Source: Bacteroidota bacterium (lineage in GTDB: Bacteria; Bacteroidota; Ignavibacteria; UBA10030; UBA8401). Taken from it: DNA of 59,902 bases. The stretch's first letter is position 1. Each line of letters begins with the position of its first letter. The notes under the pieces were generated by a model that saw only the letters and a list, made by a program, of their open reading frames with translations, had not been told where the DNA came from and made no database searches. Made by a program: the position numbers and the translations under genes. Below, in pieces: positions 26,731-42,031 of this stretch. The stretch spans positions 1 to 59,902 of the forward strand of contig DATJXA010000132.1 in the NCBI GenBank assembly GCA_035500675.1, in the 5' to 3' direction.

Positions 26731-28803
26731 CTATTGCAAAAACTTTTTCATCCAATCGATCCACCTTTTATAGACATCCGTCCTTCGGACGATGTCGCCG
26801 GGAAAGTGTGTATCGACCGGATATACATAGAATGCCGTTTGGACGCCGTTATCGAGAAGCGCATGATACATTTCGTAACTGTTTACGATCGGGACGTTGT
26901 CGTCCCCTGCGTCTCCCATAATAAGAGTCGGGGCTTTCACATTCTTTGCCAGCACGATCGGGGATTGTTCTCTCCAGATGTTCCAATATTCGTCGACCCA
27001 GGGCGACCCGCCAAAGAAATATAGGTCGCCTTTCTGATAATATGCAATCGTATAATCCATCACCCAATCATTAAGGGCGGCCCCCTCGACGGCAGCTTTC
27101 CATTTTGTCGGATAGTAACCGGTGAGCCATGACGTCATGTAACCTCCGTACGACCAGCCGGACACGCCAACGCGGTTCGTATCGATGACGTTGAGCTGGA
27201 GAATTTTATCCAACCCTGCCATAACATCTTTACCCGGTCCTTCGCCCGTGTCTTTGAAAATTGCGTGCTGATATTCATCCCCCAAATTTGTGCTCCCGCG
27301 ATAATTCGGCTGAAAGACAAAAAATCCCTCCGTTGCTAACAGTTCAGGCAATGGCGAAAATTCCACGGTCGATGCGCTTTCAGGTCCGCCATGAATGACC
27401 AAGACAAGCGGATACTTTTGACCCTTTTTAAATTCAACAGGATATGTGAGAATGCCATCTTCATCGAACCCATCGGGGCCTTTCCAGTCGACGGTTACTG
27501 TTTTACCGAAATCCAAACTGTCGGCAAAACTATTTACATCTGTAAGCCGTCTTGGTTTCGCAGAGAGCGTTTGCAAAAGATATAGTTCCGACGGATGCTC
27601 GGAGGTAGCCCCAGTGAAAGCGAGGATCCCGTTATTTGACACGCTGATGCTTTGGCTTTCAACCTCAACATTGCCAAGGTCAATTTGTTCGGCATCTCCA
27701 TCGATCGGCTGACGCCATATAATAGAGTGACTTCCTTTTTCTCCGGCGATCAACACCGAAGCAGCATCGGGAAGCCAGAGATAATTGTCTATATTTCGAT
27801 CCAGTTTCTGAGTGATGTCGATATTTTTTCCGTCTCTTCTCAGATAGACCGCATTCCCATTATTTTGATCACCGTTGCGAGGCCGCATAAATGAAAGCAG
27901 TTCTGTTCCCGGCGCATATTGTGGGTGACCCGAACCCTCGTCTTCAATTAAAGCTCTCGCTTCACTGCCGCTTGTATCGACTTCCATGATCGTCGAATGC
28001 CAGGCATTACCGTCCCACACATCTGGGAATTGCTGAAAGACAATCGCACTGCCGTTTTTACTCCAGCTTAACGGAGAAATGGTTTCCTGGTCGGTGCAGA
28101 GGCTGACATCCCCCTTCGTTAATTGTTCGGCCTTGCCCCCTTTCGATGAGACGATCCAAAGATGCCACGGCTGCAATTCAGCGCGCACCAGATAATTGTT
28201 ATAGCTCACCTTGAATGCATCTTCATGATGCTTGATTTCTTTGGGATTGGGAATAGTATCTTGAGCCACAAAAGCAATTTTCGTTCCGTCTGGACTCCAG
28301 GTGAATTCTTTGACGCCCGTTTTTGATTCCGTAATCGGCACGGGGTCGCCGCCATTCATCGTCATCACATAGATTTGCGTCTCATCCGAATCGGGGCCTT
28401 TCGCGATGAATGCTAACTTGCCGCCATCGGGCGACCATTGCACTTCGGAAATACTTTTTCTCTCGAATGTAACGCTTCGGAGCGTGCCATCGCTCACATT
28501 GACAAGGTCAATTTCTTCCTTGTTCTTATCGCTCTCCCATTCGGGCCGGGAAACAACAACTGCGACCTGGCCTCCGTCGGGGGAAATCTGCGGATCGGAA
28601 AGCCGGACGATTTTTCTGACATCGTCCGGCGTAAAGACTTTCCTAGCGTTCTGCGGCAAGGCGATAGAGGGCAATAAGAGAATAACTGCCGACATATAAC
28701 ATGAATAGATCGGCTGCATAATAAAAAATCTTTTACGCCTACTCATTGTCCGTTCGCCCAACTTATCAAAAAATTTAGCCAGTAAAATTTTTTGGCCGGT
28801 CAT
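26731..28803 (-). CDS. S9 (prolyl oligopeptidase / acylaminoacyl peptidase-like) peptidase with WD40-like propeller
   Basis: IHGGP, NYRGS, GWSYGG nucleophile, PQISPDG/WSPDG repeats, DDNV, H. True start is uncertain and may be downstream. Confidence 0.92.
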   Translation of the reverse strand: MTGQKILLAKFFDKLGERTMSRRKRFFIMQPIYSCYMSAVILLLPSIALPQNARKVFTPDDVRKIVRLSDPQISPDGGQVAVVVSRPEWESDKNKEEIDLVNVSDGTLRSVTFERKSISEVQWSPDGGKLAFIAKGPDSDETQIYVMTMNGGDPVPITESKTGVKEFTWSPDGTKIAFVAQDTIPNPKEIKHHEDAFKVSYNNYLVRAELQPWHLWIVSSKGGKAEQLTKGDVSLCTDQETISPLSWSKNGSAIVFQQFPDVWDGNAWHSTIMEVDTSGSEARALIEDEGSGHPQYAPGTELLSFMRPRNGDQNNGNAVYLRRDGKNIDITQKLDRNIDNYLWLPDAASVLIAGEKGSHSIIWRQPIDGDAEQIDLGNVEVESQSISVSNNGILAFTGATSEHPSELYLLQTLSAKPRRLTDVNSFADSLDFGKTVTVDWKGPDGFDEDGILTYPVEFKKGQKYPLVLVIHGGPESASTVEFSPLPELLATEGFFVFQPNYRGSTNLGDEYQHAIFKDTGEGPGKDVMAGLDKILQLNVIDTNRVGVSGWSYGGYMTSWLTGYYPTKWKAAVEGAALNDWVMDYTIAYYQKGDLYFFGGSPWVDEYWNIWREQSPIVLAKNVKAPTLIMGDAGDDNVPIVNSYEMYHALLDNGVQTAFYVYPVDTHFPGDIVRRTDVYKRWIDWMKKFLQ

Positions 28804-28807
28804 CTAT

Positions 28808-30937
28808 CTACTTTCCTTTCATCAGTTCGATGTATTCCGGTTCATTCCGGATCGGGTCGAGATCGGGGTCACGCTTGATCCATTCATAAAATCCATACCC
28901 CGACCCGATTGCTTTCTTCAACGCCTGGAGCGCGAGCGCCTTGTCTCCAACATTTGCGTAGAAACATGCTGCATTGTAGAACATCAGCGGATCGTTCGGG
29001 CTCAATTCGATGGCTCGTGCCGCTTTGGCTTTCGCCTCGTCGAGATGGTCAGTTCGCACCAAGACAAGGGCGTAGAAGATATGAGCCCGCGCGTCGTCGG
29101 GATGCTGCAACAGGTAACGCGGGAACATTTCCATGGAAGCCGTGAGCCATTTCTCAACGTTTTCCTTTTCTTCCAGGCGGCTGTAACACAGCACGATGTC
29201 GCCATAGGCTGTATAAAAATCGGCGTTGAGTTCGACAACCTTCCGGAACATCTCTGCCGCTTCCCGCACGCGGTCGGTGGTGACATACGTTCGGCCGAGT
29301 ATCCAATAGGCGGTATGATTGCTCGGGTTCAGCTCGATCGCTTTCTGACTCGATTCCAGTGCTTCGCCGTGCGACTTCTTATAAAGATAGACGAGACCCA
29401 ACGCGGAATACGCCTCGGACAATGAGGGGTCGTACATCAACGCTTTGAGGCCTGCTTCCAGCGCTTTGTCCAGCAGGGTATCGTTCCTTTCGAACTGTTG
29501 GTAGAGGTGCGCGTACGCCTCGCTTAACCCCGCATACGCGTCGGCATATCGCACGTCATACTCGATTGCTTTTTGAAAAAGTTCGATCGCGATCTGCACG
29601 CCGTTTTTTGTGAACCGATACATCGAGTCTCGTGCGCGCAAATTGCAATCGAATGCCTGAGCGCTCAACGTCGGACGCTTTGTGAGCACCACCTGCTCTT
29701 TCGGGGTGAGTTTGACCATCAGGGCATCGACGATCTGTTTTGAAACTTTTTCCTGAATATCAAAAACGTCCTCGAGCTTACCTTTGTACGTTTCCGCCCA
29801 GAGCTGCGCGTCTGCGTCGACATCGACGAGCTCGACGGCGATGCGGAGGTTGTCCTGAAATTTTCTGACGCTTCCCGCAAGGATGTAGCGCGTGTCGAGC
29901 TCTCGTCCGATCGTCTTGACGTCCTTGGTCGTCGTTTTGTACTGCATCGATGTCGTCCGCGGCACGACCCGAATATCTTTGAGCCTAGACAAGTTGATGA
30001 TCAGCTCTTCCGTAAGGCCGTCGCTGAAATAGTCGCTTTCTTTATCGGGACTGATATTGCCGAACGGGAGTACAGCGATCGCTTTTGTCTGGGGTTGAGT
30101 CTGGGCGCTTTCGATCGCCTTGAGTGTGTCCTGTAAAGAGTGGAGCACTTCATCGGCAGTTTGATAGCGCTGCAACCGATCCTTCGCCAGCATCTTTTTG
30201 ATGAGAGAGTCTACTTGATGGGGAATTTTTCTGTCCATCAGGCTTGGAACGGGAGGATCTTCGTTCACGATCAGATAGAGCAATCCGGCTTCATGTTCCG
30301 ATTTAAATGGAAGGTCGGCGGTGAGTATTTCATAGAGCACGACACCCAGAGACCAAATATCGGACCGCTGATCGGCGGCTTCGCCCTGAGCCTGTTCGGG
30401 CGACATGTACGACAACGTTCCGAGCGATGTGCCGGTTCTTGTCAAACCGGAACTGCTTTTAAGTTTCGCGATGCCGAAATCCATGATCTTGAGCTTTCCG
30501 TCGTTCGTCAGCATGACGTTTTCCGGCTTGATATCCCGATGGACGATATTTTTTCCATGGGCCGCCTTGAGCCCTTCAGCGATCTGCGATGCCCACGCGA
30601 TCGCCTGCTGCACCGGAACGCCCGTCCCTGATTTCAAATTTGTCATGTATCTCTTCAGAGTCGTCCCTTCGAGATACTCCATCACGAGGAACATTCCGTC
30701 GTCGTGCTCATCGATCTCATACACGTTAAGGATGTTCGGATGATTAAGGGATGCAGTCGCCTTCGCCTCTTGAAGGAATCGCGCTTTACTGTCTGCAGAC
30801 GCTGAAAGGTGAGAAGGAAGGATCTTGATCGCGACCATACGGTCGAGCTTCAGGTCCTGGGCCTTATAGACAACGCCCATACCGCCTTCGCCGAGCTTTT
30901 CGAGAATTTTATAGTGTGAGATTGTTGAACCGATCAT
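28808..30937 (-). CDS. Hanks-type Ser/Thr protein kinase (STK1) with TolB-N-like domain and TPRs
   Basis: LGEGGMGVVY, VAIK, HRDIKPEN, DFG; AIAVLPFGN...YFSDGLTEELI; TPRs ending YNAAC...DPDLDPIR. Confidence 0.95.
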   Translation of the reverse strand: MIGSTISHYKILEKLGEGGMGVVYKAQDLKLDRMVAIKILPSHLSASADSKARFLQEAKATASLNHPNILNVYEIDEHDDGMFLVMEYLEGTTLKRYMTNLKSGTGVPVQQAIAWASQIAEGLKAAHGKNIVHRDIKPENVMLTNDGKLKIMDFGIAKLKSSSGLTRTGTSLGTLSYMSPEQAQGEAADQRSDIWSLGVVLYEILTADLPFKSEHEAGLLYLIVNEDPPVPSLMDRKIPHQVDSLIKKMLAKDRLQRYQTADEVLHSLQDTLKAIESAQTQPQTKAIAVLPFGNISPDKESDYFSDGLTEELIINLSRLKDIRVVPRTTSMQYKTTTKDVKTIGRELDTRYILAGSVRKFQDNLRIAVELVDVDADAQLWAETYKGKLEDVFDIQEKVSKQIVDALMVKLTPKEQVVLTKRPTLSAQAFDCNLRARDSMYRFTKNGVQIAIELFQKAIEYDVRYADAYAGLSEAYAHLYQQFERNDTLLDKALEAGLKALMYDPSLSEAYSALGLVYLYKKSHGEALESSQKAIELNPSNHTAYWILGRTYVTTDRVREAAEMFRKVVELNADFYTAYGDIVLCYSRLEEKENVEKWLTASMEMFPRYLLQHPDDARAHIFYALVLVRTDHLDEAKAKAARAIELSPNDPLMFYNAACFYANVGDKALALQALKKAIGSGYGFYEWIKRDPDLDPIRNEPEYIELMKGK

Positions 30938-30974: not shown

Positions 30975-31629
30975 TCGACCCCAAAGGGGTCGAATTGTAC
31001 AGGACCGGGGCAACGCCCCGACTCATATTGGAAACAAGCCTCTATGAACCCTGAAAGGGTGAAACAATTATGTCAATCCCAGATATAACGTTCATCAAAT
31101 TTGATCTTGTATGCATTCAAAAATGCACGATACTCATCTTGAAAAATTTTCTTACGATGATGCTCTTCTTGGTTTGCAATATATTTTTTTACACGCTCAA
31201 CCTCAGATTGACCTACAGAAAATGCGCCATACCCGTTCTGCCATGCGAATTTGGACAAGAGCCCCCCTTTCGACTTGATCCATTTCGATGACCCGCGTTT
31301 GATTTCGCCTACTACCTTTGCGATAGAGAGATTGCGCGACAATGAAGAAAGAATATGCACATGATCTGCAACTCCTCCAACAATCAAAACGGGACAATCG
31401 AGATTTTTACACGTGCCGCCGAGATAGGCGTGTAATTCTTTGCGTACAGTTTTGTCAACGAGAAATGGGAACCTGTGCTTCGTCGAAAAAACAATGTGTA
31501 TCAGAACGTTCGCAAGTGATTGAGACATATCCCCCCCCCATATAACCCTTTCAGGGTTACTGATTAGTACGGTTTGTTGTGTGCCGAGGACGATGTCCTC
31601 GGTTGAATTATGCTTCCCCCTTGGGGAAG
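30975..31629. mobile_element. Y1 transposase flanked by inverted three-hairpin modules (REPtron-like unit)
   Basis: Module 30975-31060 (+) and module 31543-31629 (-) enclose tnpA, with ACCCT-GAA-AGGGT hairpins nearest the gene on both sides. Confidence 0.7.
31073..31528 (-). CDS. tnpA: IS200/IS605-superfamily Y1 (HUH) transposase, RAYT-like
   Basis: IHIVFSTKHR, HUH motif DHVHIL, SSKWI, WQNGYGAFSV, catalytic Tyr in KYIANQEEHH. No adjacent tnpB. Confidence 0.9.
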   Translation of the reverse strand: MSQSLANVLIHIVFSTKHRFPFLVDKTVRKELHAYLGGTCKNLDCPVLIVGGVADHVHILSSLSRNLSIAKVVGEIKRGSSKWIKSKGGLLSKFAWQNGYGAFSVGQSEVERVKKYIANQEEHHRKKIFQDEYRAFLNAYKIKFDERYIWD

Positions 31630-32484
31630 GTTTAGGCGTTATCCTTTTTTAATGATTTAATAAAATTCTTTGATGAAAATACTTCCCAATCAATAACTGC
31701 AACGACCCTGAAAGGGTCCCATATTCAAGGTCGGGGCAACGCCCTAACCTGAAACGATCTAAATACAATGATGAACCCCGAAGGGGTGATATATTTCTCT
31801 TCTCAGGAGTATCTTCCATTGTATTTCTTCTTAAGTATGTAACCCTTTCAGGGTAACACGGTAATACGATTTGTCGCACTCCGCGGGCAATGCCCTCGGT
31901 TACAGTATTCTTCCCCTGCGGGGAAGAATCATGCTTTACATTATTATATTAACCACAAAACATCGCACTCAGTTAACGCGTTGCTCCAATTCGGGAAATA
32001 ATTGTTTTCAATCAGAAAATGTGATGACCCTGAAAGGGTTCGATATTCAAAGGCGGGGCAACGCCCCAACCTGAAACGATTTAAATACAATGTTGGACCC
32101 CGAAGGGGTGATATATTTTTTTCCGCACGGATACCTTGTTTATGTTTTCTTGATTATGGAACCCTTTCAGGGTATCGTATTAATGGGTTTGTCGTTTTCG
32201 AGGGCATTGCCCTCGGTTACAATATCCTTCCCCCTTTGGGGAAGACGATGGCTTTATCTATTTTAGAAATGCAAGAAAATCTTTTAATAAAAATATTTCA
32301 CAATCAATAAATGTGACGACCCTGAAAGGGTTCGATATTCAAAGGCGGGGCAACGCCCCGACGAAGAGGATTCGACTATAATGATGAACCCCGAAGGGGT
32401 GATATATTTCTCTTCTCAGGAGTATCTTCACCTTCGTAGAAGAACACTTTTCAAGAGTGTAATAGCGCGAGATTATTCAACCGA

Positions 32485-34528: not shown

Positions 34529-36886
34529 TTATTTCACCAAACCGGATTTTTTCGTCAATGCAATGAACCTCGGTTCGGTTCGGATGTCATCCCACGCGTC
34601 GTCAATGAGGAGGTTCCCGAACCAGATGCTGTGGTCGTTAAAATCTTTCTCGAGCATTTCCAGGGCTTTTTCTTTATCCCCAAGCCCTGCATATATTCTG
34701 GCGATGTTGTATGCCGAACCGGTTCCTTCGTTGTACCTGCGCTCGTTCTCTTTCAGAAGCTTGAGGGCTTTGTCCCTCATGTTGTGCTTTGCATAGAAGT
34801 ATGCGAGAGAGGATATACATTCGCTCGAACGTCCCGACAACTCCACGGCTTTTTCGAGCTGTGCCTGGGCATCGGAATATTTTTTTAAGCGATTATTTGC
34901 GATCCCTTGCCATTCATACCCGACCGCAAACGACGGGTCGAGCTCGACCGATTTTGTAAAATAGCCAAGCGCGTCTTCATACTGTCCGCGAAGAAGCGGG
35001 ATGAGGCCTAAGTTAATTTCGATGATGGGGGAAAACGGGTCGAGCTCGTGCGCCTTTTGGATCATTGCCGAGGCCTCTTCTGTACGCCACGTCCTAACAA
35101 GCATGATGTTGTACCAGTGATACGCCGTCCCGTACCGCGGGTTCAGCGAAATGGCTTGTTTGAATTCCCGCTCCGCATCATCATATTTCCATTCTTGAAC
35201 ATAGCAGAGTCCGATTGTGGCGTGAGCTTCTGCGAGCGAATTATCGAGATCGAGCGCGCGACGGGCAGATGCCAATGCCATGGGCACCGTGACACTTGTC
35301 GGGATTCCAGAATATTGCGATTGGAGGACGTAACAGTCTGCCAGCCCCGAATAGGCGAGCGCATAGGTCGAATCCAGCACAATTGCTTGATTCAAATATC
35401 CGATCGCGCGCACTATCGAAGCGGCGGTGCGTTTGTTCCAGTAATACCGTCCTTGCAGATATAACTGATATGCCTGAGTGTTAACAGTGGATGGCTGGGT
35501 AATTTTTTCCCGAGTCTCCGTCGAGAGCCCGATGCCAAGCTTCGATGACACGTCGTCAGTGATTTGCTGCTGCAACGAAAGAAGGTCCGTCATCGAGGAA
35601 TGATAAAGATTGCCCCACAATTCCGATTGCCGGTTGACGTCGATCAGATCGACCTGAACGTCCAGGACCTGGCCACGATGAGTGATCGTTCCCGACAGAA
35701 CCGCCCCGACATTTAATTTCGACCCGATGGCCTGAATGTCCATCTCTTTTCCCTTGAACCGGAACACGGTGCTGCGTGGAATGACCCTCAACGATGATAT
35801 TTTCGTGAGATTGTTGATGATACTTTCGGTGAGGCCGTCCGAAAGATATTCCTGTTCCTGCGACGCGCCGGCATTTTCAAACGGAAGCACCGCGAGTGAA
35901 TCGATCCCCTTCGCGCGGCCGCTGTAAAAATAGGTCGCTAGTGCTATCAACACCACTGCGAGGCCCACGGAGCCGAAGATGAAAAAATTTTTCTTCGGCA
36001 TAGACTTTTTAACAACGGGATGATCTTGTTCCACCGGAGGAGCGGCCGCATCGACCATCGATGGACGCATGACTCTCGACGTTTTCTTTCGCTCGCGCCG
36101 CAATTCGCTCACCATGTCGGCGACCGATTGATAACGATCCTCCGGATTTTTTTCGAGCGCCCGTGCGATAATGCGCTCAAGTTCCGGAGATGCTCCCGGT
36201 TGAACCTTCGTTAACGGCGTCGGTTCCTCGTTGACGATGGAATAGACCATTGCTGCTTCATGTTCGCCGCGAAAAGGTAGCTTGCCCGTCAACATCTCGA
36301 AGAACAAGACGCCAAAGGAAAAAATGTCGCTCCTGTAATCGACTTCTCCTGCCTGGATTTGTTCCGGCGCCATGTAGCCGAGCGTTCCAACCGTGCTGGA
36401 GGTGCGTGTGAGCTTCAACGATCCTTTCAGCTTTGCCAACCCGAAATCCATCACCTTGACCTGGCCCTTCGAGGTCAGCATGATATTGTCGGCTTTGATA
36501 TCCCTGTGGACGATCCCTTTGGAATGAGCTTCTTGCAGCGCCTCGCCGATCTGCGCCGCTATAACGATCGCATCGTCGGATTTTGCAAAGGGAATCTTCT
36601 CGCCGAGAGTTCCGCCGTCGATGTATTCCATTGCGATGAAGAGCTGTCCCTCGTGTTCCTCGACTCCGTAGATCGTGCAGATATTGGGATGATTGAGTCC
36701 CGCTGCGGCTTGCGCTTCCTGAAGAAAACGTGCCTTTGCAGTCTCATCCTTCGTCACCCTGTCGGGAAGAAATTTAAGAGCCACGTTGCGGTTCAGCGTC
36801 GTATCGTGGGCCTTGTAGACAACGCCCATTCCTCCTTCGCCGAGCTTTTCAAGAATTTTATAGTGAGAAATAGTTTGTCCTATCAC
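34529..36886 (-). CDS. Hanks-type Ser/Thr protein kinase (STK2) with TM, TolB-N-like domain and TPRs
   Basis: GTG start; LGEGGMG, VALK, HRDIKADN, DFG; TM segment; SLAVLPFEN...YLSDGLTESII; TPRs. Confidence 0.95.
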   Translation of the reverse strand: MIGQTISHYKILEKLGEGGMGVVYKAHDTTLNRNVALKFLPDRVTKDETAKARFLQEAQAAAGLNHPNICTIYGVEEHEGQLFIAMEYIDGGTLGEKIPFAKSDDAIVIAAQIGEALQEAHSKGIVHRDIKADNIMLTSKGQVKVMDFGLAKLKGSLKLTRTSSTVGTLGYMAPEQIQAGEVDYRSDIFSFGVLFFEMLTGKLPFRGEHEAAMVYSIVNEEPTPLTKVQPGASPELERIIARALEKNPEDRYQSVADMVSELRRERKKTSRVMRPSMVDAAAPPVEQDHPVVKKSMPKKNFFIFGSVGLAVVLIALATYFYSGRAKGIDSLAVLPFENAGASQEQEYLSDGLTESIINNLTKISSLRVIPRSTVFRFKGKEMDIQAIGSKLNVGAVLSGTITHRGQVLDVQVDLIDVNRQSELWGNLYHSSMTDLLSLQQQITDDVSSKLGIGLSTETREKITQPSTVNTQAYQLYLQGRYYWNKRTAASIVRAIGYLNQAIVLDSTYALAYSGLADCYVLQSQYSGIPTSVTVPMALASARRALDLDNSLAEAHATIGLCYVQEWKYDDAEREFKQAISLNPRYGTAYHWYNIMLVRTWRTEEASAMIQKAHELDPFSPIIEINLGLIPLLRGQYEDALGYFTKSVELDPSFAVGYEWQGIANNRLKKYSDAQAQLEKAVELSGRSSECISSLAYFYAKHNMRDKALKLLKENERRYNEGTGSAYNIARIYAGLGDKEKALEMLEKDFNDHSIWFGNLLIDDAWDDIRTEPRFIALTKKSGLVK

Positions 36887-37023
36887 AATATTTTTCTCCC
36901 CCTCCCGCCAAAGAACGGCGGGATGCTCAAATTTTCAATCCCGCAAAAAAGCTGCGGGAGAAAATTTGGCACTTCGCCGAGCTTCTCGAGGATTTTATAG
37001 TGCGATATTGTCTGTCCGATCAT
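36835..37023 (-). repeat. 52-nt direct repeat (36972-37023 vs 36835-36886) flanking an 85-nt double-hairpin insert
   Basis: 43/52 identical; 8 synonymous changes plus ATG/GTG. Hairpins at 36928-36968 and 36903-36923. Confidence 0.9.
36883..37023 (-). CDS. Unannotated 46-aa leader ORF duplicating the STK2 N-terminus
   Basis: MIGQTISHYKILEKLGE-VPNFLPQLFCGIENLSIPPFFGGRGRKIL*. TGA (36885-36883) overlaps the STK2 GTG. An alternative ATG lies at 37026. Confidence 0.6.
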   Translation of the reverse strand: MIGQTISHYKILEKLGEVPNFLPQLFCGIENLSIPPFFGGRGRKIL

Positions 37024-37034
37024 CATCGCTTCAA

Positions 37035-39719
37035 TTATTTATTTTCCACCAGATTCTGCCAGTTAAAAATGAGCGACCCGTTTTTCAGAGATTGAGTGTT
37101 CAATGTCCGCGTCACCAAAATTTGTTTTCCGTCTCTCGAGATATCCATGACGTTTGTCTGAAATCCGGCGTCGATTTTAAACAGCTGTTTCGTTTGGCCG
37201 ACATTGATCTCATTTCCCGAGATGGTGACAGGGACTGAAAATACTTGCTGGTTATTGAGCGTGTACATAATCTCCCTGCCGTTATTGAGCCATCGGGGCT
37301 GCTCGCCACCGTTCGTCGATACCTGCCACTTGCTCGGTGAGCCGTCGGTCGGCCTGATGTAGACTTCGTTTTTGCCCGTTTCATCCGATTCATACGCGAA
37401 CCATTTTCCATCGGGCGAAAATGTCGCGAGCCATTCGTCAAACTCGGAGGTCAATAACGGAGTGTATTTCTTTTCTCTTATGTCGTACATCCCGACATCC
37501 CATTTTTGCACACCTTGCGTGTTGATGGACAGAAGCAATTTATTCCCATCATGTGAGACGTCGGTGACATAGGAACTGGTGTTCCCGGCATAGATCAAGT
37601 GCTCATCGCCTGTACCGTTGCTGTTTTTCTCGTAGATGCTGAAAACCCCGCTGGCGTTCGAGCTGAAATACACCTTGCTGTCGTCCGGCGACCATGAAGG
37701 GACGAGCTCGGTGCCTTTATCAAATGTAAGACGCGTGTCGGAGTTACGCTGAGTGTCATGGATCCATAAATCGGTATTCTTTGCCGATTCGTCCAATGCA
37801 TCGGTCGCAACGTATTTTCCGTCGGTGGAAAACGCCGCCCACGTTGTCGCAACTTTTGATTGCATCGTATGTTGGATGACGCCGTTCGCACCGTAAATGA
37901 CCATTTCATTATCGGATTTTGCCGTGCCGAGATACGCCAGTCGACCATCCCTCGAAAATGAAAAAGTCCCTTTGCTTCGCACCCTTGCGTATAAAACGCT
38001 TTCCAAAATCGGGATCGGCTCGCCTTTCAATTCCAAGGAACCGTCGTCGAATCGTTGGGCAAGCAAAGAATTTTGTTTATAATAGAGCACCCATCCGCGA
38101 TTGTAAACGATATTACTCGATGCGTGGACGACAATTTTATTCTTCGTATCGCCGAGAGAAGCTACACGAATATGGTCTGCGTCTTCCTCGAGCGACGGTT
38201 TGCTTGTCTGGACAGTGTAAAAGAAGTGGTCCCCGTCGGGCAAAAAATATGGCCAGCGATGATTTACTTCATACTCGGTCGAGTCGAGCCGAGTAAGTTG
38301 CTTCGCTGTTCCTCCTGCCGAAGAGACTTGATACAACGGCCCACTGCTGCTCGGCGCGAAGATAATCACCCCATCCTTATTCCACGTCCCGCCTCTTCCG
38401 TCCGTTGCGTCACAAACGGTGAATGACGGTCCCCCTTTTGCATCGATCTTTTTGAGCTTTCCGTCAGCAAAGTACGCGATCATTCTGCTGTCATACGACC
38501 AAAACGGATAGGACGCATTTTCAGTGCCCGATAAAAGCAAAGGCGTCGGTGCATCCAGTGGCCGCACCCAGAGGTGATCTTTCCCGAGAGAGTCGACAGC
38601 GACGAACGCAATCATGCTGCCGTCGGGGGAAATTTCCAGATGGCCTCCGACAGTTGAATTGAAAATATTTCCTTTAGGGGCTTCGAACGAGAGTTGAATC
38701 AACTCAGGCCCTTTCTTAATAAATAGAAAGTACCATCCTACGACAGCGATCAGCAACACCGACAAAGCAATCGAGGCAGCCATCCAAACATTGAAAGGTA
38801 ATGCCTTCTTCTGCGGAAGCGTTTCGTATTCCGCAGTTTGAGGAGCGATCCTCGTCCCGGATGAAATCTGGCTCTTGCGCACGGCAAGAATTCTGCTTGC
38901 GGTCTGGCGGCTCGATTCACGTTTAAGTTTTCGAAGATCCTTGACGATCTCCTTTGCGGATTGATACCGCTCGTCCGGGTCTTTTGCGAGACATTCAAGG
39001 AGAATTGCATCGAGGTCGGTGGGCACGTCTGGCTTGAGGATCGAGATCGGTTCGGCATCGACATTGACGATCTCGTAAATGATGGCGGTCTCATGAACGC
39101 CTTTGAACGGCGATTGCCCCGATATCAATTCATACAACAGAACGCCGAAGGAAAAGATATCGGTGCGGTGATCGACGTTGAACCCCTGCACCTGCTCGGG
39201 CGACATATACCCCACTGTTCCGACGGTATTGCCTTCCCGTGTCAGACGCGAAACGCCCTGAAGTTTCGCCAGGCCGAAATCCATGATCTGCACGAGACCG
39301 TCCTTCCGCAGCATCACATTTTCCGGCTTGATGTCCCGATGGACGATCCCCTTTTCATGGGCGGCAGCTAATCCCTCCGCAACCTGGATCCCGATGTCGA
39401 TCGATTGTTTGAAAGAAATATTGTTCTTCCTGTCGCGCAGCGTTTCACCGTCGATGAATTCCATTGCGATGAACAACTGGTCTTCATATTCCGCGACATC
39501 ATAGATCGTGCAGATATTGGGATGATTCAGAGTAGCGGCGGCTTTCGCCTCCTGCATAAATCGCTGGCGGTCGGACTCAGTGGAAGAGACGCTCTTCGTC
39601 AAAAATTTAAGTGCAACAAACCTGTCGAGTTTGGTGTCCCTGGCTTTATAGACGATGCCCATGCCACCTTCGCCAAGTTGCTCGAGAATTTCATACTGAA
39701 GAATCGTTTTACCAATCAT
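37035..39719 (-). CDS. Hanks-type Ser/Thr protein kinase (STK3) with TM and TolB/PD40 beta-propeller
   Basis: LGEGGMG, VALK, HRDIKPEN, DFG; TM; ISPDG, FWSYD, WSPDD, FSPDG repeats. Confidence 0.95.
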   Translation of the reverse strand: MIGKTILQYEILEQLGEGGMGIVYKARDTKLDRFVALKFLTKSVSSTESDRQRFMQEAKAAATLNHPNICTIYDVAEYEDQLFIAMEFIDGETLRDRKNNISFKQSIDIGIQVAEGLAAAHEKGIVHRDIKPENVMLRKDGLVQIMDFGLAKLQGVSRLTREGNTVGTVGYMSPEQVQGFNVDHRTDIFSFGVLLYELISGQSPFKGVHETAIIYEIVNVDAEPISILKPDVPTDLDAILLECLAKDPDERYQSAKEIVKDLRKLKRESSRQTASRILAVRKSQISSGTRIAPQTAEYETLPQKKALPFNVWMAASIALSVLLIAVVGWYFLFIKKGPELIQLSFEAPKGNIFNSTVGGHLEISPDGSMIAFVAVDSLGKDHLWVRPLDAPTPLLLSGTENASYPFWSYDSRMIAYFADGKLKKIDAKGGPSFTVCDATDGRGGTWNKDGVIIFAPSSSGPLYQVSSAGGTAKQLTRLDSTEYEVNHRWPYFLPDGDHFFYTVQTSKPSLEEDADHIRVASLGDTKNKIVVHASSNIVYNRGWVLYYKQNSLLAQRFDDGSLELKGEPIPILESVLYARVRSKGTFSFSRDGRLAYLGTAKSDNEMVIYGANGVIQHTMQSKVATTWAAFSTDGKYVATDALDESAKNTDLWIHDTQRNSDTRLTFDKGTELVPSWSPDDSKVYFSSNASGVFSIYEKNSNGTGDEHLIYAGNTSSYVTDVSHDGNKLLLSINTQGVQKWDVGMYDIREKKYTPLLTSEFDEWLATFSPDGKWFAYESDETGKNEVYIRPTDGSPSKWQVSTNGGEQPRWLNNGREIMYTLNNQQVFSVPVTISGNEINVGQTKQLFKIDAGFQTNVMDISRDGKQILVTRTLNTQSLKNGSLIFNWQNLVENK

Positions 39720-39862
39720 CGCATAATTTCCTTTCCCCTCCCGCCGAAAAACGGCGGGATTCTCAAAATCACTGCCACTCGCTGAGTAGGGCTCGTGGGT
39801 GATTTTGGAACTTCGCCCAGTTGCTCGAGAATTTCATACTGAAGAATTGTTTTACCGATCAC
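39668..39862 (-). repeat. 52-nt direct repeat (39811-39862 vs 39668-39719) flanking a 91-nt double-hairpin insert
   Basis: 48/52 identical; 3 synonymous changes plus GTG/ATG. Hairpins at 39764-39807 and 39739-39759. Confidence 0.9.
39716..39862 (-). CDS. Unannotated 48-aa leader ORF duplicating the STK3 N-terminus
   Basis: AAGGAG RBS then GTG; MIGKTILQYEILEQLGE-VPKSPTSPTQRVAVILRIPPFFGGRGKEIMR*. TGA overlaps the STK3 ATG (ATGA). Confidence 0.65.
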   Translation of the reverse strand: MIGKTILQYEILEQLGEVPKSPTSPTQRVAVILRIPPFFGGRGKEIMR

Positions 39863-39945
39863 AAGTCGCTCCTTTCAAACTGATAACTGCCACCGCACTC
39901 TACCGAACCCTCGATGTTAAACAAGAGAAGATAGGAGAAATCGTT

Positions 39946-40689
39946 TCAATGAGTGAACCATTCTGCCGTAAGACAGCGGTACACTTTTGTCGTCAGATCC
40001 TCGCTTGTCGCCGATGTTGTCGTCGCGCTCGCGTGAGAAACCCGCCAGCGGACCGAAGCCGGTAAAATTTTATAGATCGATTCCAACAGCTCGCCGATCG
40101 AATGGATACCGGGCGACTGAAGTTCAACGGTCTCGTCCCAGAATGAAATGACGTGGAACTTGTGCTGTTGACGGAGAAGGATCAGGTCGATGAACCCTTT
40201 ATGAGCTTTATATTTTGGATGGATCTCAGACGCGAAAAGAGCTTCGAATGTATTGACTTGATCTTCCTGGACAGTGAGCTCAAGGATCTGAACGGCAAAC
40301 GGTTTCGCTTTGAGCTTGCTGATGTTCTCCGAGCCGGCGACGGATCCGTCAAATCGTTCGATTGTCGGCTCTATTTGGATCGGAGTGTATTCGAGAGACA
40401 GGTCTTCCGTCAACTCCAGTTTCCATTCGTTTGAATCGGCAAAATATGGCCGGAGCGAATCGACCAATTTAGTATACAAGCCGCTCTTTTCATAGTCTTC
40501 CGAATCTTTGCGGGATTTCCAGATTGTGAGGGAAATACATTCCTGCGGTTTGTCGGTATTTTGGAGCAGCGAGGCAAATGCGCATCCCTTTGTGGAGCGA
40601 AGAGCAGAGAGCACCGACTGCGCATAGGCCTCGGCATTCTTCTCCGATTCCTCGGCGCGTATGATGTGAGTGACAAGCCTTAGAAACAT
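39946..40689 (-). CDS. Tandem ABM (dimeric alpha/beta-barrel) domain protein
   Basis: ALRSTKGCAFASLLQ...ISLTIWKSRKDSEDYE; second repeat HKGFIDLILL...VISFWD. Confidence 0.75.
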   Translation of the reverse strand: MFLRLVTHIIRAEESEKNAEAYAQSVLSALRSTKGCAFASLLQNTDKPQECISLTIWKSRKDSEDYEKSGLYTKLVDSLRPYFADSNEWKLELTEDLSLEYTPIQIEPTIERFDGSVAGSENISKLKAKPFAVQILELTVQEDQVNTFEALFASEIHPKYKAHKGFIDLILLRQQHKFHVISFWDETVELQSPGIHSIGELLESIYKILPASVRWRVSHASATTTSATSEDLTTKVYRCLTAEWFTH

Positions 40690-40732
40690 CGCTTCCTCAT
40701 CTGCAATTGTGGTGGGGACGACGATACTGTTT

Positions 40733-42031
40733 TTATTGCACTCGCTTAATGACCATCATCGTGATGTCGTCGGATTGGGGATGAGCGCCGGCATGTTTTC
40801 TCACTTCTTTGACCACCGCGTCGATGATGTCCTCGGCCGAACGGTTCCGTTGTTCGAGCAAGAGAGTTTGAAGGCGTTCATCCCCAAACTGCTCTTGATT
40901 GCTGTTCATCGCTTCGCTCACGCCGTCGGATTGGACGACCAGAATGTCCCCGGCGCGCATATCGATCCGTTCATCTTCATATTCTGCCTGAGGGAGTAAT
41001 CCGATCATCAGTCCGCCAGTTTTCAGCCGCTGGATCGTCCCATCGCTGCCGATCAAAAAAGGCCAGTCGTGACCGGCGTTGGAATAGTGTATGTTGTGAT
41101 GTTCGACGTCGATGATGCCGTAGAAAAGCGTTGCAAACTTTTCGGGGCTTGTGCTTTCGTACAGCAATTTATTCGAGCGCAAAAGACATTCGGAGGGCGC
41201 TTGAGACACCAGCGTCTGCCCTCGAAGCGTCGCTTGAAGGTTTGCCATGAGGAGCGATGCCGGCAGCCCTTTGCCCGAAACATCTCCGAGGCATAACGCC
41301 ATGCGTCCGTCGCTTTTCGGAATGAAATCGAAATAGTCGCCGCCGATAGACTGAGCGGCGATCGTGCGCGCAAAGATGTCGTACCCTTCAAGGCCCGGGT
41401 TGCTCCGGGGCAAAAGGTCTCGCTGGATTTTTGCCGCGAGGCCGACCTCCTGCTGCATCTTGATATACAGTTTCTCCTCTTCGATCAATCGGGCGTTCTC
41501 GACGACCTGCGCGGATTGCGCCGAGATGATTGCGAGAAGACGCTGGTCGTCCGTGTTGAACGATTGTCCTTCCTTCTTATTATAAACGGTGAGGACGCCG
41601 CGCAGCTCGGATTTGACGATCAAGGGCACGCACAAAAGCGTTCTGATATTGTCGTCCCAGTGTACACCTCGGAAACGTACGTCGTTTGCCGGATCGTCCA
41701 CGCTCAGCGGTTTTTTATTCAGGTGCATCCAACCGATCAACGCCTGGTGCATGTGAAATGCCGGCGCGCCCGCTGAAGACACCATCGTGCGGATCAGCGT
41801 CTTCATCGACTTCTGCTCTTCTTCCACCAGTGTGATGACACCTTGTTCCGCGTTGACTGCCCTGAGAGATTTCCGGATCAGCGTCTGCATGATCTCTTCG
41901 GCGTTCAACGAAGCGCTGATGGCCCGCGCGATGTCGTTGAGAATGGAAAGTTCTTCAACCGCACGGCGAAGCCTGCGCACTTCATCTTGAAGCGCATCGA
42001 TGGATTGAGTGGGTTGAGGTTTTTCAGCCAT
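40733..42031 (-). CDS. GAF + SpoIIE/PP2C Ser/Thr phosphatase (RsbU-like)
   Basis: GAF domain; IGGDYFD, GDVSGKGLPA, SNAGH, SDGVSEA, SDDITM. Confidence 0.93.
   Translation of the reverse strand: MAEKPQPTQSIDALQDEVRRLRRAVEELSILNDIARAISASLNAEEIMQTLIRKSLRAVNAEQGVITLVEEEQKSMKTLIRTMVSSAGAPAFHMHQALIGWMHLNKKPLSVDDPANDVRFRGVHWDDNIRTLLCVPLIVKSELRGVLTVYNKKEGQSFNTDDQRLLAIISAQSAQVVENARLIEEEKLYIKMQQEVGLAAKIQRDLLPRSNPGLEGYDIFARTIAAQSIGGDYFDFIPKSDGRMALCLGDVSGKGLPASLLMANLQATLRGQTLVSQAPSECLLRSNKLLYESTSPEKFATLFYGIIDVEHHNIHYSNAGHDWPFLIGSDGTIQRLKTGGLMIGLLPQAEYEDERIDMRAGDILVVQSDGVSEAMNSNQEQFGDERLQTLLLEQRNRSAEDIIDAVVKEVRKHAGAHPQSDDITMMVIKRVQ

What the first reader, a model, noticed from the sequence alone, without database searches (positions are those of the whole stretch)
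36883..37023. 46-aa leader of STK2: 8 synonymous and 0 non-synonymous differences from the kinase start
Leader codons ATC CAG ACA ATA TCG ATC CTC GAG vs kinase ATA CAA ACT ATT TCT ATT CTT GAA all encode the same residues (MIGQTISHYKILEKLGE). A dead duplicate would be expected to accumulate replacement changes too. The frame stays open for 29 further codons and ends TTG TGA on the kinase GTG. It starts 11 nt after the STK3 stop, so it lies inside the operon. It is too short for the supplied ORF track.
Basis: seen in the sequence. Interest (0 to 1): 0.8.

Follow-up and report, generated by a model that had tools for sequence, protein, structure and literature searches.

The report
Kinase gene stump beside hairpin cassette
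The 46-codon "leader" is the displaced original start of the kinase gene, cut off by a small gene-less hairpin element that spreads among kinase and tRNA genes of Ignavibacteria, and the stump is kept readable so that ribosomes run through the element and stop on the kinase's start codon.

Summary
The ORF at 36883-37023(-) copies STK2 codons 2-17 with 8 synonymous and 0 replacement differences (P about 5e-6), and its TGA overlaps the STK2 GTG.

It is not a kinase-specific invention.
- STK3 has the same layout at 39716-39862(-).
- About 55 relatives in Ignavibacteria-like genomes have a kinase start fragment of 4-39 codons joined to a conserved two-hairpin element, here called E. E has 19 P1 pairs, 14 of them with compensatory changes, and no Rfam match.
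- E also sits beside about 20 tRNA genes. There it lies behind a truncated copy of the neighbouring tRNA or flush against a tRNA 3' end.
- A tiny GIY-YIG nuclease gene sometimes lies next to E.

A related wetland strain has the same STK3-STK2 junction without E. Its kinase start matches the leader in 49 of 53 bases. In an STK3 orthologue, the stump keeps the STK3-type N-terminus while the gene's working start is generic.

I conclude that the leader is the native gene start and the working start came in with the cassette. That explains the synonymous-only pattern.

The stump reading frame is under selection. About 45 of 55 stumps read through E to a stop on or overlapping the next start codon, at 25 different lengths that all equal 2 mod 3. 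This points to translational coupling. How the element moves is unresolved.

The parts
36973..37023 (-). Stump: start codon plus 16 codons of a kinase N-terminus (MIGQTISHYKILEKLGE). I read it as the displaced native 5' end of STK2. A further in-frame ATG lies at 37024-37026.
   Evidence: The run X3 contig with no cassette matches 36972-37024 at 49/53 and follows an STK3-type C-terminus LVENK*.
36923..36972 (-). Element E, hairpin P1 (GUGCCAAAUUUUCUCCCGCAG...UGCGGGAUUGAAAAUUUGAGCAU). The stump ORF reads through it.
   Evidence: Covariance model R1 hits 36917-36972(-) at 64.6 bits. Fold energy is -39.3 kcal/mol, z = -3.8. On 76 copies, 97.3% of cells are paired and 14 of 19 pairs have changes on both sides.
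36904..36922 (-). Element E, hairpin P2 (CCCGCCGUUCUUUGGCGGG).
   Evidence: The same hairpin lies at 39740-39758 before STK3.
36887..36903 (-). Spacer with a Shine-Dalgarno-like run (AGGGGGAGAAAAAUAUU) before the STK2 GTG.
   Evidence: A GGAGG-like run lies at this place in nearly all copies.
36883..36886 (-). GTGA overlap: the STK2 start GTG and the stump ORF stop TGA.
   Evidence: An overlap of this NTGA form (ATGA in relatives) is found in 39 kinase-linked copies.
34529..36886 (-). STK2: Hanks-type Ser/Thr kinase with a TPR C-terminal region. I infer that its first ~17 codons arrived with the cassette.
   Evidence: Pfam Pkinase 1.9e-57 plus TPR families. The import is an inference.
39716..39862 (-). 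Second instance. The STK3 stump ORF is (GTG)IGKTILQYEILEQLGE|VPKS...GRGKEIMR*, 48 aa, with 3 synonymous and 0 replacement differences from STK3. It reads through E (P1 39753-39811, P2 39740-39758) and ends in an ATGA overlap with the STK3 ATG.
   Evidence: (73.4 bits).
37035..39719 (-). STK3: Ser/Thr kinase with a PD40 beta-propeller region. Its stop lies 8-11 nt before the STK2 stump start.

Best explanation
The leader is the original 5' end (a "stump") of the STK2 gene. A small non-coding cassette of about 86 nt sits right behind codon 17. It consists of element E (hairpin P1, hairpin P2) and a spacer with a ribosome-binding site. A second copy of the gene start follows, and that copy now heads the working kinase.

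E belongs to a repeat family of Ignavibacteria-like bacteria, found at two kinds of place:
- In the first 4-39 codons of many Ser/Thr kinase genes, with a truncated upstream copy of the gene's start and an intact gene downstream.
- Beside tRNA genes: in most copies behind a truncated copy of the neighbouring tRNA with the intact gene beyond (11 upstream in the same orientation, with a 5' fragment; one locus antisense, with 3'-half fragments), and in a few flush against a tRNA 3' end.

Some family members carry a tiny GIY-YIG nuclease gene. The window's two copies carry none.

Shown:
- The family exists, and its structure covaries.
- Its association with both kinase and tRNA genes.
- An allele without the cassette in a related strain, whose gene start matches the stump.
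- An orthologue in which the stump keeps the gene-specific N-terminus while the working start is generic.
- One pair of paralogues in which the cassette plus both gene starts was recently copied as a block, beginning exactly at the stump ATG.

Inferred:
- The working start came in with the cassette, through break repair or recombination that uses the conserved gene start as homology. This resembles the endonuclease ORFs of fungal mitochondria that carry a replacement gene end.
- The synonymous-only differences are the divergence between two functional gene starts.

How it works now, also inferred. Ribosomes start on the stump, possibly by re-initiation after the STK3 stop 8-11 nt upstream. They translate through P1 and P2 and terminate on the UGA that overlaps the STK2 GUG. 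This melts the hairpins and hands ribosomes to the kinase start. Selection for this read-through keeps the stump frame open.
For: 1. Architecture repeated in the window. STK3 has its own stump, E and an ATGA overlap. The break point (GE|VP) is the same and P2 is 80% identical.

2. Family.
- Covariance model R1 finds 76 strong copies in about 55 loci.
- In 100 unrelated loci (760 kb) the only hits were two copies in an Ignavibacterium album MAG.
- P1 has 97.3% of cells paired, 14 of 19 pairs with changes on both sides and 208 compensatory cells. None of 500 shuffles reached these values, and slid controls gave 31-47% paired.
- There is no Rfam family at E <= 10.

3. Not kinase-specific.
- E lies behind tRNA 5' fragments (10 nt, or 33-37 nt up to the anticodon loop) followed by the intact tRNA: Gly-CCC, Ala-CGC, Arg-TCT, Arg-CCG. 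At Val-UAC it lies antisense, behind 3'-half fragments.
- E abuts the 3' ends of tRNA-Glu and tRNA-Gln.
- After E, the interrupted copy continues for a few bases, or for a whole 3' half in L223. E is therefore an insertion in the truncated copy.

4. Empty site. A 381-nt contig from run X3 reads: STK3-type C-terminus LVENK* with synonymous changes, then a spacer, then a kinase start 49/53 identical to 36972-37024, then straight on into GGMGVVYKAE with no E.

5. Imported start. L030 holds an STK3 orthologue (87% identity over residues 1-111). Its stump reads MIGKTILQFDIVEQLGE (STK3-type) but its working start reads MIGRTISQYKILEKLGE (generic).

6. Block copying. The two L242 loci are 98% identical from the stump ATG through E to about kinase codon 45. 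Identity is nil upstream and 76% further downstream.

7. Divergence pattern. Pooled stump versus own kinase gives pS 0.85 (saturated) and pN 0.11, the same as unrelated kinase pairs at 0.91 and 0.12. The copies are generally not recent self-duplicates.

8. Frame selection.
- 39 copies have the stump stop in an ATGA (here GTGA) overlap with the kinase start.
- 3 more overlap the next stump's start codon, and 3 more overlap the kinase start by 1 or 7 nt.
- 25 different stump-to-kinase distances (113-302 nt) all equal 2 mod 3, against 6 exceptions.
- In tRNA-linked copies the three frames across E are open in only 6, 11 and 3 of 20.

9. Nuclease link.
- Pfam GIY-YIG ORFs of 87-92 aa lie next to E or E-like modules in L214, L230, L211 and L207.
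- L257 has an 8-codon kinase stump, then a GIY-YIG cassette, then an intact kinase.

10. Published analogue. Endonuclease ORFs carrying a replacement gene terminus leave a native copy with low DNA identity but high protein identity (PMC3630166).
Against: - No enzyme is tied to the window's two copies, and the window holds no GIY-YIG gene.
- Among 80 relatives of the kinase-adjacent GIY-YIG, only 2 lie before kinases and only 1 lies near E. The nuclease link therefore rests on five loci.
- No excision or copy-out joints were seen, but only assembled contigs could be laid, not reads.
- In STK3 the stump and the gene share the same unusual N-terminus with only 3 differences. That fits a donor of the same gene, or equally a local duplication.
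- Stump-to-stump comparisons still give pN/pS 0.19 at saturated pS. Selection on the peptide itself is therefore not excluded.
- The empty-site contig is known only from its laid coordinates and two 30-nt loose-end consensus strings. I could not read it in full.
- Translation and coupling are inferred from comparative frames alone. No RNA data exist.
- The spacer carries its own Shine-Dalgarno-like run, which the fold leaves unpaired. The kinase may therefore also initiate on its own.
Confidence: 0.68

Rival explanations
1. The leader is a dedicated regulatory leader peptide. The small ORF and the RNA structure evolved to control kinase translation, and the peptide's kinase-like N-terminus is itself selected. 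It might act, for example, as a nascent-chain sensor or as a decoy of the kinase N-lobe.
For: - Synonymous-only differences in both window pairs: 11 to 0, with P about 1e-5 even if only the kinase copy is constrained.
- Stump-to-stump pN/pS is 0.19 at saturated pS.
- The frame and the ATGA overlap are conserved.
- P1 favours G-U pairs on the sense strand and has a conserved tandem G-A motif, and E is in sense orientation before every kinase.
Against: - The same element with truncated gene copies stands at tRNA genes, including one antisense case.
- The kinase-derived part ranges from 4 to 39 codons.
- Stumps carry radical changes at positions invariant in kinases (G16D, G16R, Y9C, L15P) and 30-48 nt in-frame hairpin inserts.
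- Some stumps are broken while E is intact: L010, L009, L213.
- An orthologous allele lacks the whole device.
- There is no terminator or antiterminator pair.
Confidence: 0.15
2. The layout is the scar of a tyrosine-integrase island or a similar site-specific integration. On this reading E is the conserved end of a larger element that has since been deleted, and the two gene starts are attL and attR-type repeats.
For: - Partial tRNA copies beside inserts are the classic mark of integrase sites.
- Breaks lie at the anticodon loop and at the tRNA 3' end, which are known integrase sublocations (the sublocation point is general knowledge).
- Later checks recorded in earlier scan notes favoured this for look-alike cases.
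Against: - The units are only 100-300 nt long, and no integrase gene was seen among the ORFs listed around nine E copies.
- Break points within one target vary: 7 classes in kinases, and D-arm, anticodon loop, T-loop and 3' end in tRNAs. Each shows only 1-2 nt of shared sequence.
- Perfect tandem arrays of the small unit occur in L201 and L226.
- The interrupted copy continues after E, which fits an insertion in a truncated copy rather than an att core.
Confidence: 0.1
3. The leader is an inert remnant. A paralogous kinase between STK3 and STK2 was deleted, leaving its first 17 codons and some intergenic hairpins, and these have no present function.
For: - Kinases of this family stand in tandem.
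- The N-terminal 17 residues are the family consensus.
- STK1's start is as close to the leader as STK2's start is.
Against: - The frame is conserved across 25 length classes, and stops are avoided within E only in the kinase context.
- The same break point and element occur before STK3 and in about 55 other loci.
- The empty allele shows that the stump is STK2's own start, not that of a third gene.
Confidence: 0.05

Closest known systems
Mobile endonuclease ORFs (mORFs) of fungal mitochondria that carry a replacement gene terminus: Allomyces atp6; Glomus atp6, atp9, cox2 and nad3 (PMC3630166)
   Same: - A mobile insert sits inside a conserved gene and brings a foreign copy of the gene end.
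- The native end stays beside it as a displaced duplicate.
- The two copies have low DNA identity but high protein identity.
- Some of these inserts encode GIY-YIG enzymes.
   Different: - Here the gene START is replaced, not the C-terminus.
- The host is a bacterium.
- The targets are Ser/Thr kinase and tRNA genes.
- Most copies, including both in the window, have no nuclease gene and consist of an 85-100 nt two-hairpin module.
- The displaced piece stays translated and is coupled to the working gene.
Free-standing GIY-YIG homing endonucleases, such as the Seg proteins of phage T4 (general knowledge, plus the pointers in the notes)
   Same: A small nuclease gene lies next to tRNA genes. It spreads by break repair that co-converts the flanking sequence.
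   Different: No cleavage activity or target has been shown here. The proteins are only 87-92 aa, a bare catalytic domain. The hairpin module has no counterpart in those systems.
In-frame palindromic repeats such as the Rickettsia palindromic elements, and transcribed MITEs such as Correia and ERIC elements (general knowledge)
   Same: These are short structured repeats in many copies per genome. They are tolerated inside transcribed and even translated sequence when the reading frame stays open.
   Different: E does not sit inside the working protein. It sits in a truncated duplicate of the gene start. Terminal inverted repeats are only 5 nt (GTCCC...GGGAC) and occur in only some copies. A target-site duplication could not be established.
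Integrase-made partial tRNA duplications (attL/attR) and the tRNA-linked repeats of E. coli (named in the notes; PMC8144298 was listed by the literature search but not read)
   Same: A part-copy of a tRNA gene stands next to an insert beside the intact gene.
   Different: In most copies here the gene's start is repeated, upstream of the intact gene. The unit is tiny and carries no integrase. Protein-coding genes are targets too.
Translationally coupled upstream ORFs with an ATGA overlap in bacterial operons (general knowledge)
   Same: The stop of the small ORF overlaps the start of the main gene, and a hairpin lies next to the ribosome-binding site.
   Different: The upstream ORF is a relic of the main gene itself and is interrupted by a repeat element.

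Membership tests
Gene-terminus-replacing mobile cassettes (mORF-like; hairpin with or without a GIY-YIG gene) | A truncated copy of the target gene's end lies on one side of the insert and an intact gene on the other. | tested here: met
   Window: stumps at 36973-37023 and 39812-39862, each before an intact kinase. About 55 kinase loci and about 12 tRNA loci show the same layout.
Gene-terminus-replacing mobile cassettes (mORF-like; hairpin with or without a GIY-YIG gene) | Presence or absence varies between orthologous sites, so an empty site exists. | tested here: met
   The X3 contig has the STK3 end, a spacer and a kinase start 49/53 identical to the stump, with no E. The L001 orthologue of STK2 also has no cassette.
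Gene-terminus-replacing mobile cassettes (mORF-like; hairpin with or without a GIY-YIG gene) | The working terminus is of foreign descent and the displaced copy is native. | tested here: inconclusive
   Met in L030, where the stump is STK3-type and the working start generic. The X3 allele is also consistent with it. For STK3 both copies are of the same type. No tree could be built from 51 nt.
Gene-terminus-replacing mobile cassettes (mORF-like; hairpin with or without a GIY-YIG gene) | The cassette contains an endonuclease gene. | tested here: not met
   Neither window cassette holds an ORF other than the stump, and the window has no GIY-YIG motif. Nuclease-bearing relatives exist in L214, L230, L211, L207 and L257. 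The window copies would be non-autonomous members.
Gene-terminus-replacing mobile cassettes (mORF-like; hairpin with or without a GIY-YIG gene) | The nuclease cleaves empty alleles and the cassette spreads by repair. | not testable with these tools
   This needs biochemistry or genetic crosses. Only the L242 block copy hints at homology-driven spread.
Leader-peptide attenuator or regulatory upstream ORF | Alternative terminator and antiterminator structures, or a regulatory codon run, in the leader. | tested here: not met
   No terminator-like site lies in 36887-36972. P2 is followed by AGGGGGAG, not a U run. No codon run is present.
Leader-peptide attenuator or regulatory upstream ORF | The ORF is conserved and coupled to the main gene. 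| tested here: met
   39 ATGA-type overlaps, and 25 lengths all equal to 2 mod 3. The control frames in tRNA-linked copies are mostly closed.
MITE (miniature inverted-repeat transposable element) | Terminal inverted repeats and a fixed-length target-site duplication. | tested here: inconclusive
   A 5-nt GTCCC...GGGAC repeat occurs in some copies only. The sequence after E can be read either as a duplication or as continuation of the target.
Known RNA families (Rfam 15) | A match to a curated covariance model. | tested here: not met
   The best hit over the region is group-II-D1D4-5 at 16.8 bits, E = 1.7, against a gathering score of 34.5.
Diversity-generating retroelement template/variable repeat pair | Differences confined to adenines of one copy. 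| tested here: not met
   The 8 differences are C/A, G/A, A/T, A/T, G/T, C/T, C/T and G/A. There is no adenine-specific pattern.

The most novel reading that the evidence does not exclude
E would be the non-autonomous form of an undescribed class of bacterial mobile element. In this class, a structured hairpin, together with an 87-92 aa bare GIY-YIG nuclease supplied in cis or in trans, invades the conserved 5' parts of tRNA genes and of a large Ser/Thr kinase gene family. It keeps the host gene alive by bringing a replacement gene start. In kinases the displaced start has been co-opted as a translated, coupled upstream ORF, and the hairpins now gate kinase translation.
Probability: 0.3. Interest if true: 0.8.

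Novelty: new variant of a known kind. Interest (0 to 1): 0.6.

Why it matters
Three points would follow if this holds.
- Short "self-copy" ORFs in front of bacterial genes can be footprints of mobile cassettes rather than purpose-built leaders. A synonymous-only pattern between such copies is not in itself proof of selection on the small ORF.
- It would extend gene-end replacement by selfish elements, known so far from fungal mitochondria, to bacterial chromosomes, to gene starts, and to protein-coding signalling genes.
- It offers a testable case of a host keeping a gene working after invasion, by translating through the invader and re-starting on an overlapping stop and start.

About a quarter of the kinase loci sampled from this family carry the cassette, so it may shape expression of a whole signalling family in Ignavibacteria.

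Tried and rejected
- Rfam scan of 36700-40100: nothing above noise.
- Diversity-generating retroelement reading: no adenine bias.
- Attenuator reading: no terminator.
- Plain tandem duplication of the unit [E plus gene start]: rejected for the window, because no E lies upstream of either stump. Real tandem arrays do occur elsewhere, in L201, L226, L229 and L011.
- Deletion of a third kinase: rejected by the empty allele.
- A 16-base pattern scan of genome contigs was too unspecific. Of the 100 loci screened with the model, only one held real copies.
- A general link between the kinase-adjacent GIY-YIG subfamily and E: not found in 80 relatives.
- The IS200-type Y1 transposase at 31073-31528 as the mover: its flanking repeats are different hairpins, and nothing ties it to E.
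- Excision or skipping joints in public runs: none seen, but only contigs were available.
- RNA runs: none listed.
- Literature searches for a description of this element: none found.
In run X2 only the window's own contig holds the leader 51-mer at 92% identity or more.
Full report
**1. The observation**

All genes here lie on the minus strand.
- STK2 is 34529-36886. It starts with GTG and has a Pkinase domain plus TPR repeats.
- STK3 is 37035-39719, with a Pkinase domain plus a PD40 propeller.
- STK1 is 28808-30937.

The small ORF 36883-37023 reads MIGQTISHYKILEKLGE|VPNFLPQLFCGIENLSIPPFFGGRGRKIL*. A further in-frame ATG lies at 37026.

Codons 2-17 differ from STK2 at eight third-codon positions, and all eight differences are synonymous. 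With 21.5% synonymous sites, P is 4.6e-6. The stop overlaps the STK2 start as GTGA.

One detail already points away from a simple self-copy. The leader is no closer in nucleotides to STK2 (41/51) than to STK1 (41/51).

**2. A second copy in the window**

A repeat search showed that STK3 has the same device.
- Its ORF starts with GTG and reads IGKTILQYEILEQLGE|VPKS...IPPFFGGRGKEIMR*.
- It has 3 synonymous and 0 replacement differences from STK3's own, unusual N-terminus.
- It breaks at the same point (GE|VP).
- It has the same proximal hairpin, CCCGCCGTTyTTyGGCGGG.
- It ends in an ATGA overlap with the STK3 start.

**3. A widespread structured element**

I fetched 79 loci holding relatives of STK2. 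Fifteen pairs of kinase-start motifs lay 98-277 nt apart.

Between the two starts lies a conserved element, which I call E. It has these parts:
- Hairpin P1, roughly GUCCCAAAAUUGCCCACGAGCG-loop-GCGAGUGGUUGCAAUUUUGAGGAU, which includes a tandem G-A/A-G motif.
- Hairpin P2, CCCGCC-loop-GGCGGG.
- A short spacer with a GGAGG-like run, followed by the kinase ATG.

A covariance model of P1 (R1) gave these results:
- 21 hits in the kinase loci. All were on the sense strand just before kinase starts.
- In 100 unrelated loci, the only hits were two copies in an Ignavibacterium album MAG.
- 71 more hits after a pattern scan.

On the 76 strong copies, 97.3% of cells pair and 14 of 19 pairs show changes on both sides. 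None of 500 shuffles reached the observed covariation, and slid controls gave 31-47% paired. Rfam 15 has no match.

**4. Not kinase-specific**

About 20 copies lie at tRNA genes.
- 11 copies lie upstream of the intact tRNA in the same orientation. There a 5' fragment of the tRNA abuts the 5' end of E. The fragment is either the first 9-10 nt or the first 33-37 nt up to the anticodon loop. The tRNAs are Gly-CCC, Ala-CGC, Arg-UCU and Arg-CCG.
- At tRNA-Val in Ignavibacterium album the same geometry appears on the opposite strand, with 3' halves as the fragments.
- At tRNA-Glu and tRNA-Gln, E abuts the tRNA 3' end.

After E the interrupted copy continues. In L223 a whole 3' half follows. At tRNA-Ala the continuation is 8-12 nt, and in one kinase class it is CTCGACC. 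E is therefore an insertion in a truncated upstream copy.

Arrays occur, some with perfectly identical units (L201, L226, L218, L229). The general rule is: a truncated copy of whatever gene follows, with E inside it, then the intact gene. That is the signature of a repeat element, not of a kinase regulator.

**5. What the stump is**

(a) An empty site.
- In run X3, a wetland metagenome that holds a relative of this organism, a 381-nt contig matches the leader 36972-37024 at 49/53.
- On one side it continues with TTATTTATTTTCGACGAGA. This encodes the STK3 C-terminus LVENK* with synonymous changes.
- On the other side it continues straight into GGMGVVYKAE.
- This is the STK3-STK2 junction without the cassette, and its kinase start corresponds to the window's leader, not to STK2's present start.

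(b) An imported start.
- L030 holds an STK3 orthologue, 87% identical over residues 1-111 and 65% over the C-terminal 634 residues.
- Its stump keeps the STK3-type N-terminus, MIGKTILQFDIVEQLGE.
- Its working start is generic, MIGRTISQYKILEKLGE.

(c) A block copy.
- Two paralogous loci on one contig (L242) are 98% identical from the stump ATG through E to about kinase codon 45.
- They are unrelated upstream and 76% identical further downstream.
- The cassette with both gene starts has been copied as a block, using the gene start as homology.

Pooled over 34 pairs, stump versus own kinase gives pS 0.85 and pN 0.11. Unrelated kinase pairs give the same, 0.91 and 0.12. The two copies are usually old relatives, each shaped by purifying selection as a working gene start.

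That accounts for the 8-to-0 pattern without selection on the leader peptide. The same pattern, low DNA identity with high protein identity between native and inserted gene ends, is described for endonuclease ORFs of fungal mitochondria (PMC3630166).

**6. The frame is under selection**

Of about 55 kinase-linked copies:
- 39 have the stump ORF open through E with its stop in an ATGA (here GTGA) overlap with the kinase start.
- 3 more overlap the start of the next stump in an array.
- 3 more overlap the kinase start by 1 or 7 nt.

The stump-start to kinase-start distance takes 25 different values between 113 and 302 nt, all equal to 2 mod 3, against six exceptions. These lengths include copies with large extra hairpins.

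In tRNA-linked copies the three frames across E are open in only 6, 11 and 3 of 20. E is therefore not free of stops by nature. Indels have been filtered to keep ribosomes reading to the kinase start.

I infer translational coupling. Ribosomes start on the stump, 8-11 nt after the STK3 stop. They melt P1 and P2, terminate on the overlapping stop, and re-start on the kinase.

The predicted fold leaves the Shine-Dalgarno-like run unpaired, so direct initiation may contribute as well. There is no terminator in E. No RNA data exist.

**7. The nuclease lead**

Small Pfam GIY-YIG ORFs of 87-92 aa lie next to E or E-like two-hairpin modules in several loci:
- L214: tRNA-Gln, then E, then the GIY-YIG gene.
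- L230: tRNA-Pro fragment, module, fragment continuation, GIY-YIG gene, intact tRNA-Pro.
- L211: tRNA-Arg.
- L207: a kinase context.

L257 shows an 8-codon kinase stump, a GIY-YIG gene framed by a 12-nt inverted repeat, and then an intact kinase.

Earlier notes of this scan describe the same tRNA layout in other phyla. They are leads, not evidence.

The link is thin. Of 80 relatives of the kinase-adjacent nuclease, only two precede kinases and one is near E. The window itself holds no such gene.

**8. What remains open**

- How E lands, and how the second gene start arises, are not established.
- Break points vary and share only 1-2 nt with the target.
- A target-site duplication could not be told apart from continuation of the target.
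- Integrase scars remain a rival.
- Only assembled contigs could be laid, and no excision joints were seen.
- The unit at 39676-39817 has 2-2.5 times the depth of its flanks in two runs. The STK3 cassette may therefore be doubled in reality, or present elsewhere.

**9. Verdict**

The inference of a purpose-built leader peptide is not supported.
- The best reading is a displaced native gene start beside a small hairpin cassette of a mobile repeat family, with the stump retained as a coupled upstream ORF.
- I class it as a new variant of a known kind (gene-end replacement by selfish cassettes), of moderate to good interest.

Noticed in passing
window 39668-39817: In runs X1 and X2 the unitig covering the STK3 start, the spacer and E has 2-2.5 times the depth of both flanks (82.6 against 32-35, and 10.5 against 5). 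It also differs from the window by one letter. The 143-nt cassette unit may be tandemly doubled and collapsed in the assembly, or present at a second locus.
   Followed up: partly
window 26731-28803 (-): The S9 peptidase ORF just after STK1 begins MTGQKILLAKFFDKLGERTMSRRK. This looks like a decayed kinase-start stump fused in frame ahead of the peptidase signal peptide. The model finds no E there.
   Followed up: no
window 31073-31528 (-) and 31540-32430: An IS200-type Y1 transposase (Pfam Y1_Tnp, 2.8e-27) is flanked by arrays of unrelated short hairpin repeats such as ACCCCGAAGGGGT and ACCCTTTCAGGGT, with 2-3 copies of 50-160 nt units. This looks like a REP/RAYT-type system. Nothing links it to E.
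   Followed up: partly
L030:750-3089: The STK3 orthologue here lacks about 150 residues of the kinase domain, matching STK3 residues 1-111 and then 261-894. It may be a pseudokinase or a deletion allele.
   Followed up: no
L257:1440-1790 and L255:1480-1780: An 87-aa GIY-YIG gene is framed by a 12-14 nt inverted repeat (CACCCCGTGAGATAA ... TTATCTCACGGGGTAA), the second arm forming the end of the ORF. In L257 it splits an 8-codon kinase stump from an intact kinase.
   Followed up: partly
L031:8850-8960, L034:3080-3180, L011:3060-3170, L253, L246: Stumps carry extra 30-90 nt hairpin inserts after codon 9 (HY). The insert reads APKAHPPGVD in L031 and SAFWNPASKRNPKERD in L011. All are in frame, which suggests further small palindromic elements tolerated only when the frame is kept.
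   Followed up: no
L211:7180-7830 and L218:5100-5470: Arrays at tRNA-Arg and tRNA-Gly hold two or three successive truncated tRNA copies. Each is plugged by a different hairpin module (E, an E variant, or a GC-rich hairpin), and the L211 array also holds one GIY-YIG gene.
   Followed up: partly
window 39946-42031 (-): Upstream of the STK3 cassette lie an ABM-domain protein and a GAF plus SpoIIE/PP2C phosphatase. The phosphatase is a plausible partner of the kinases in the same strand cluster.
   Followed up: no
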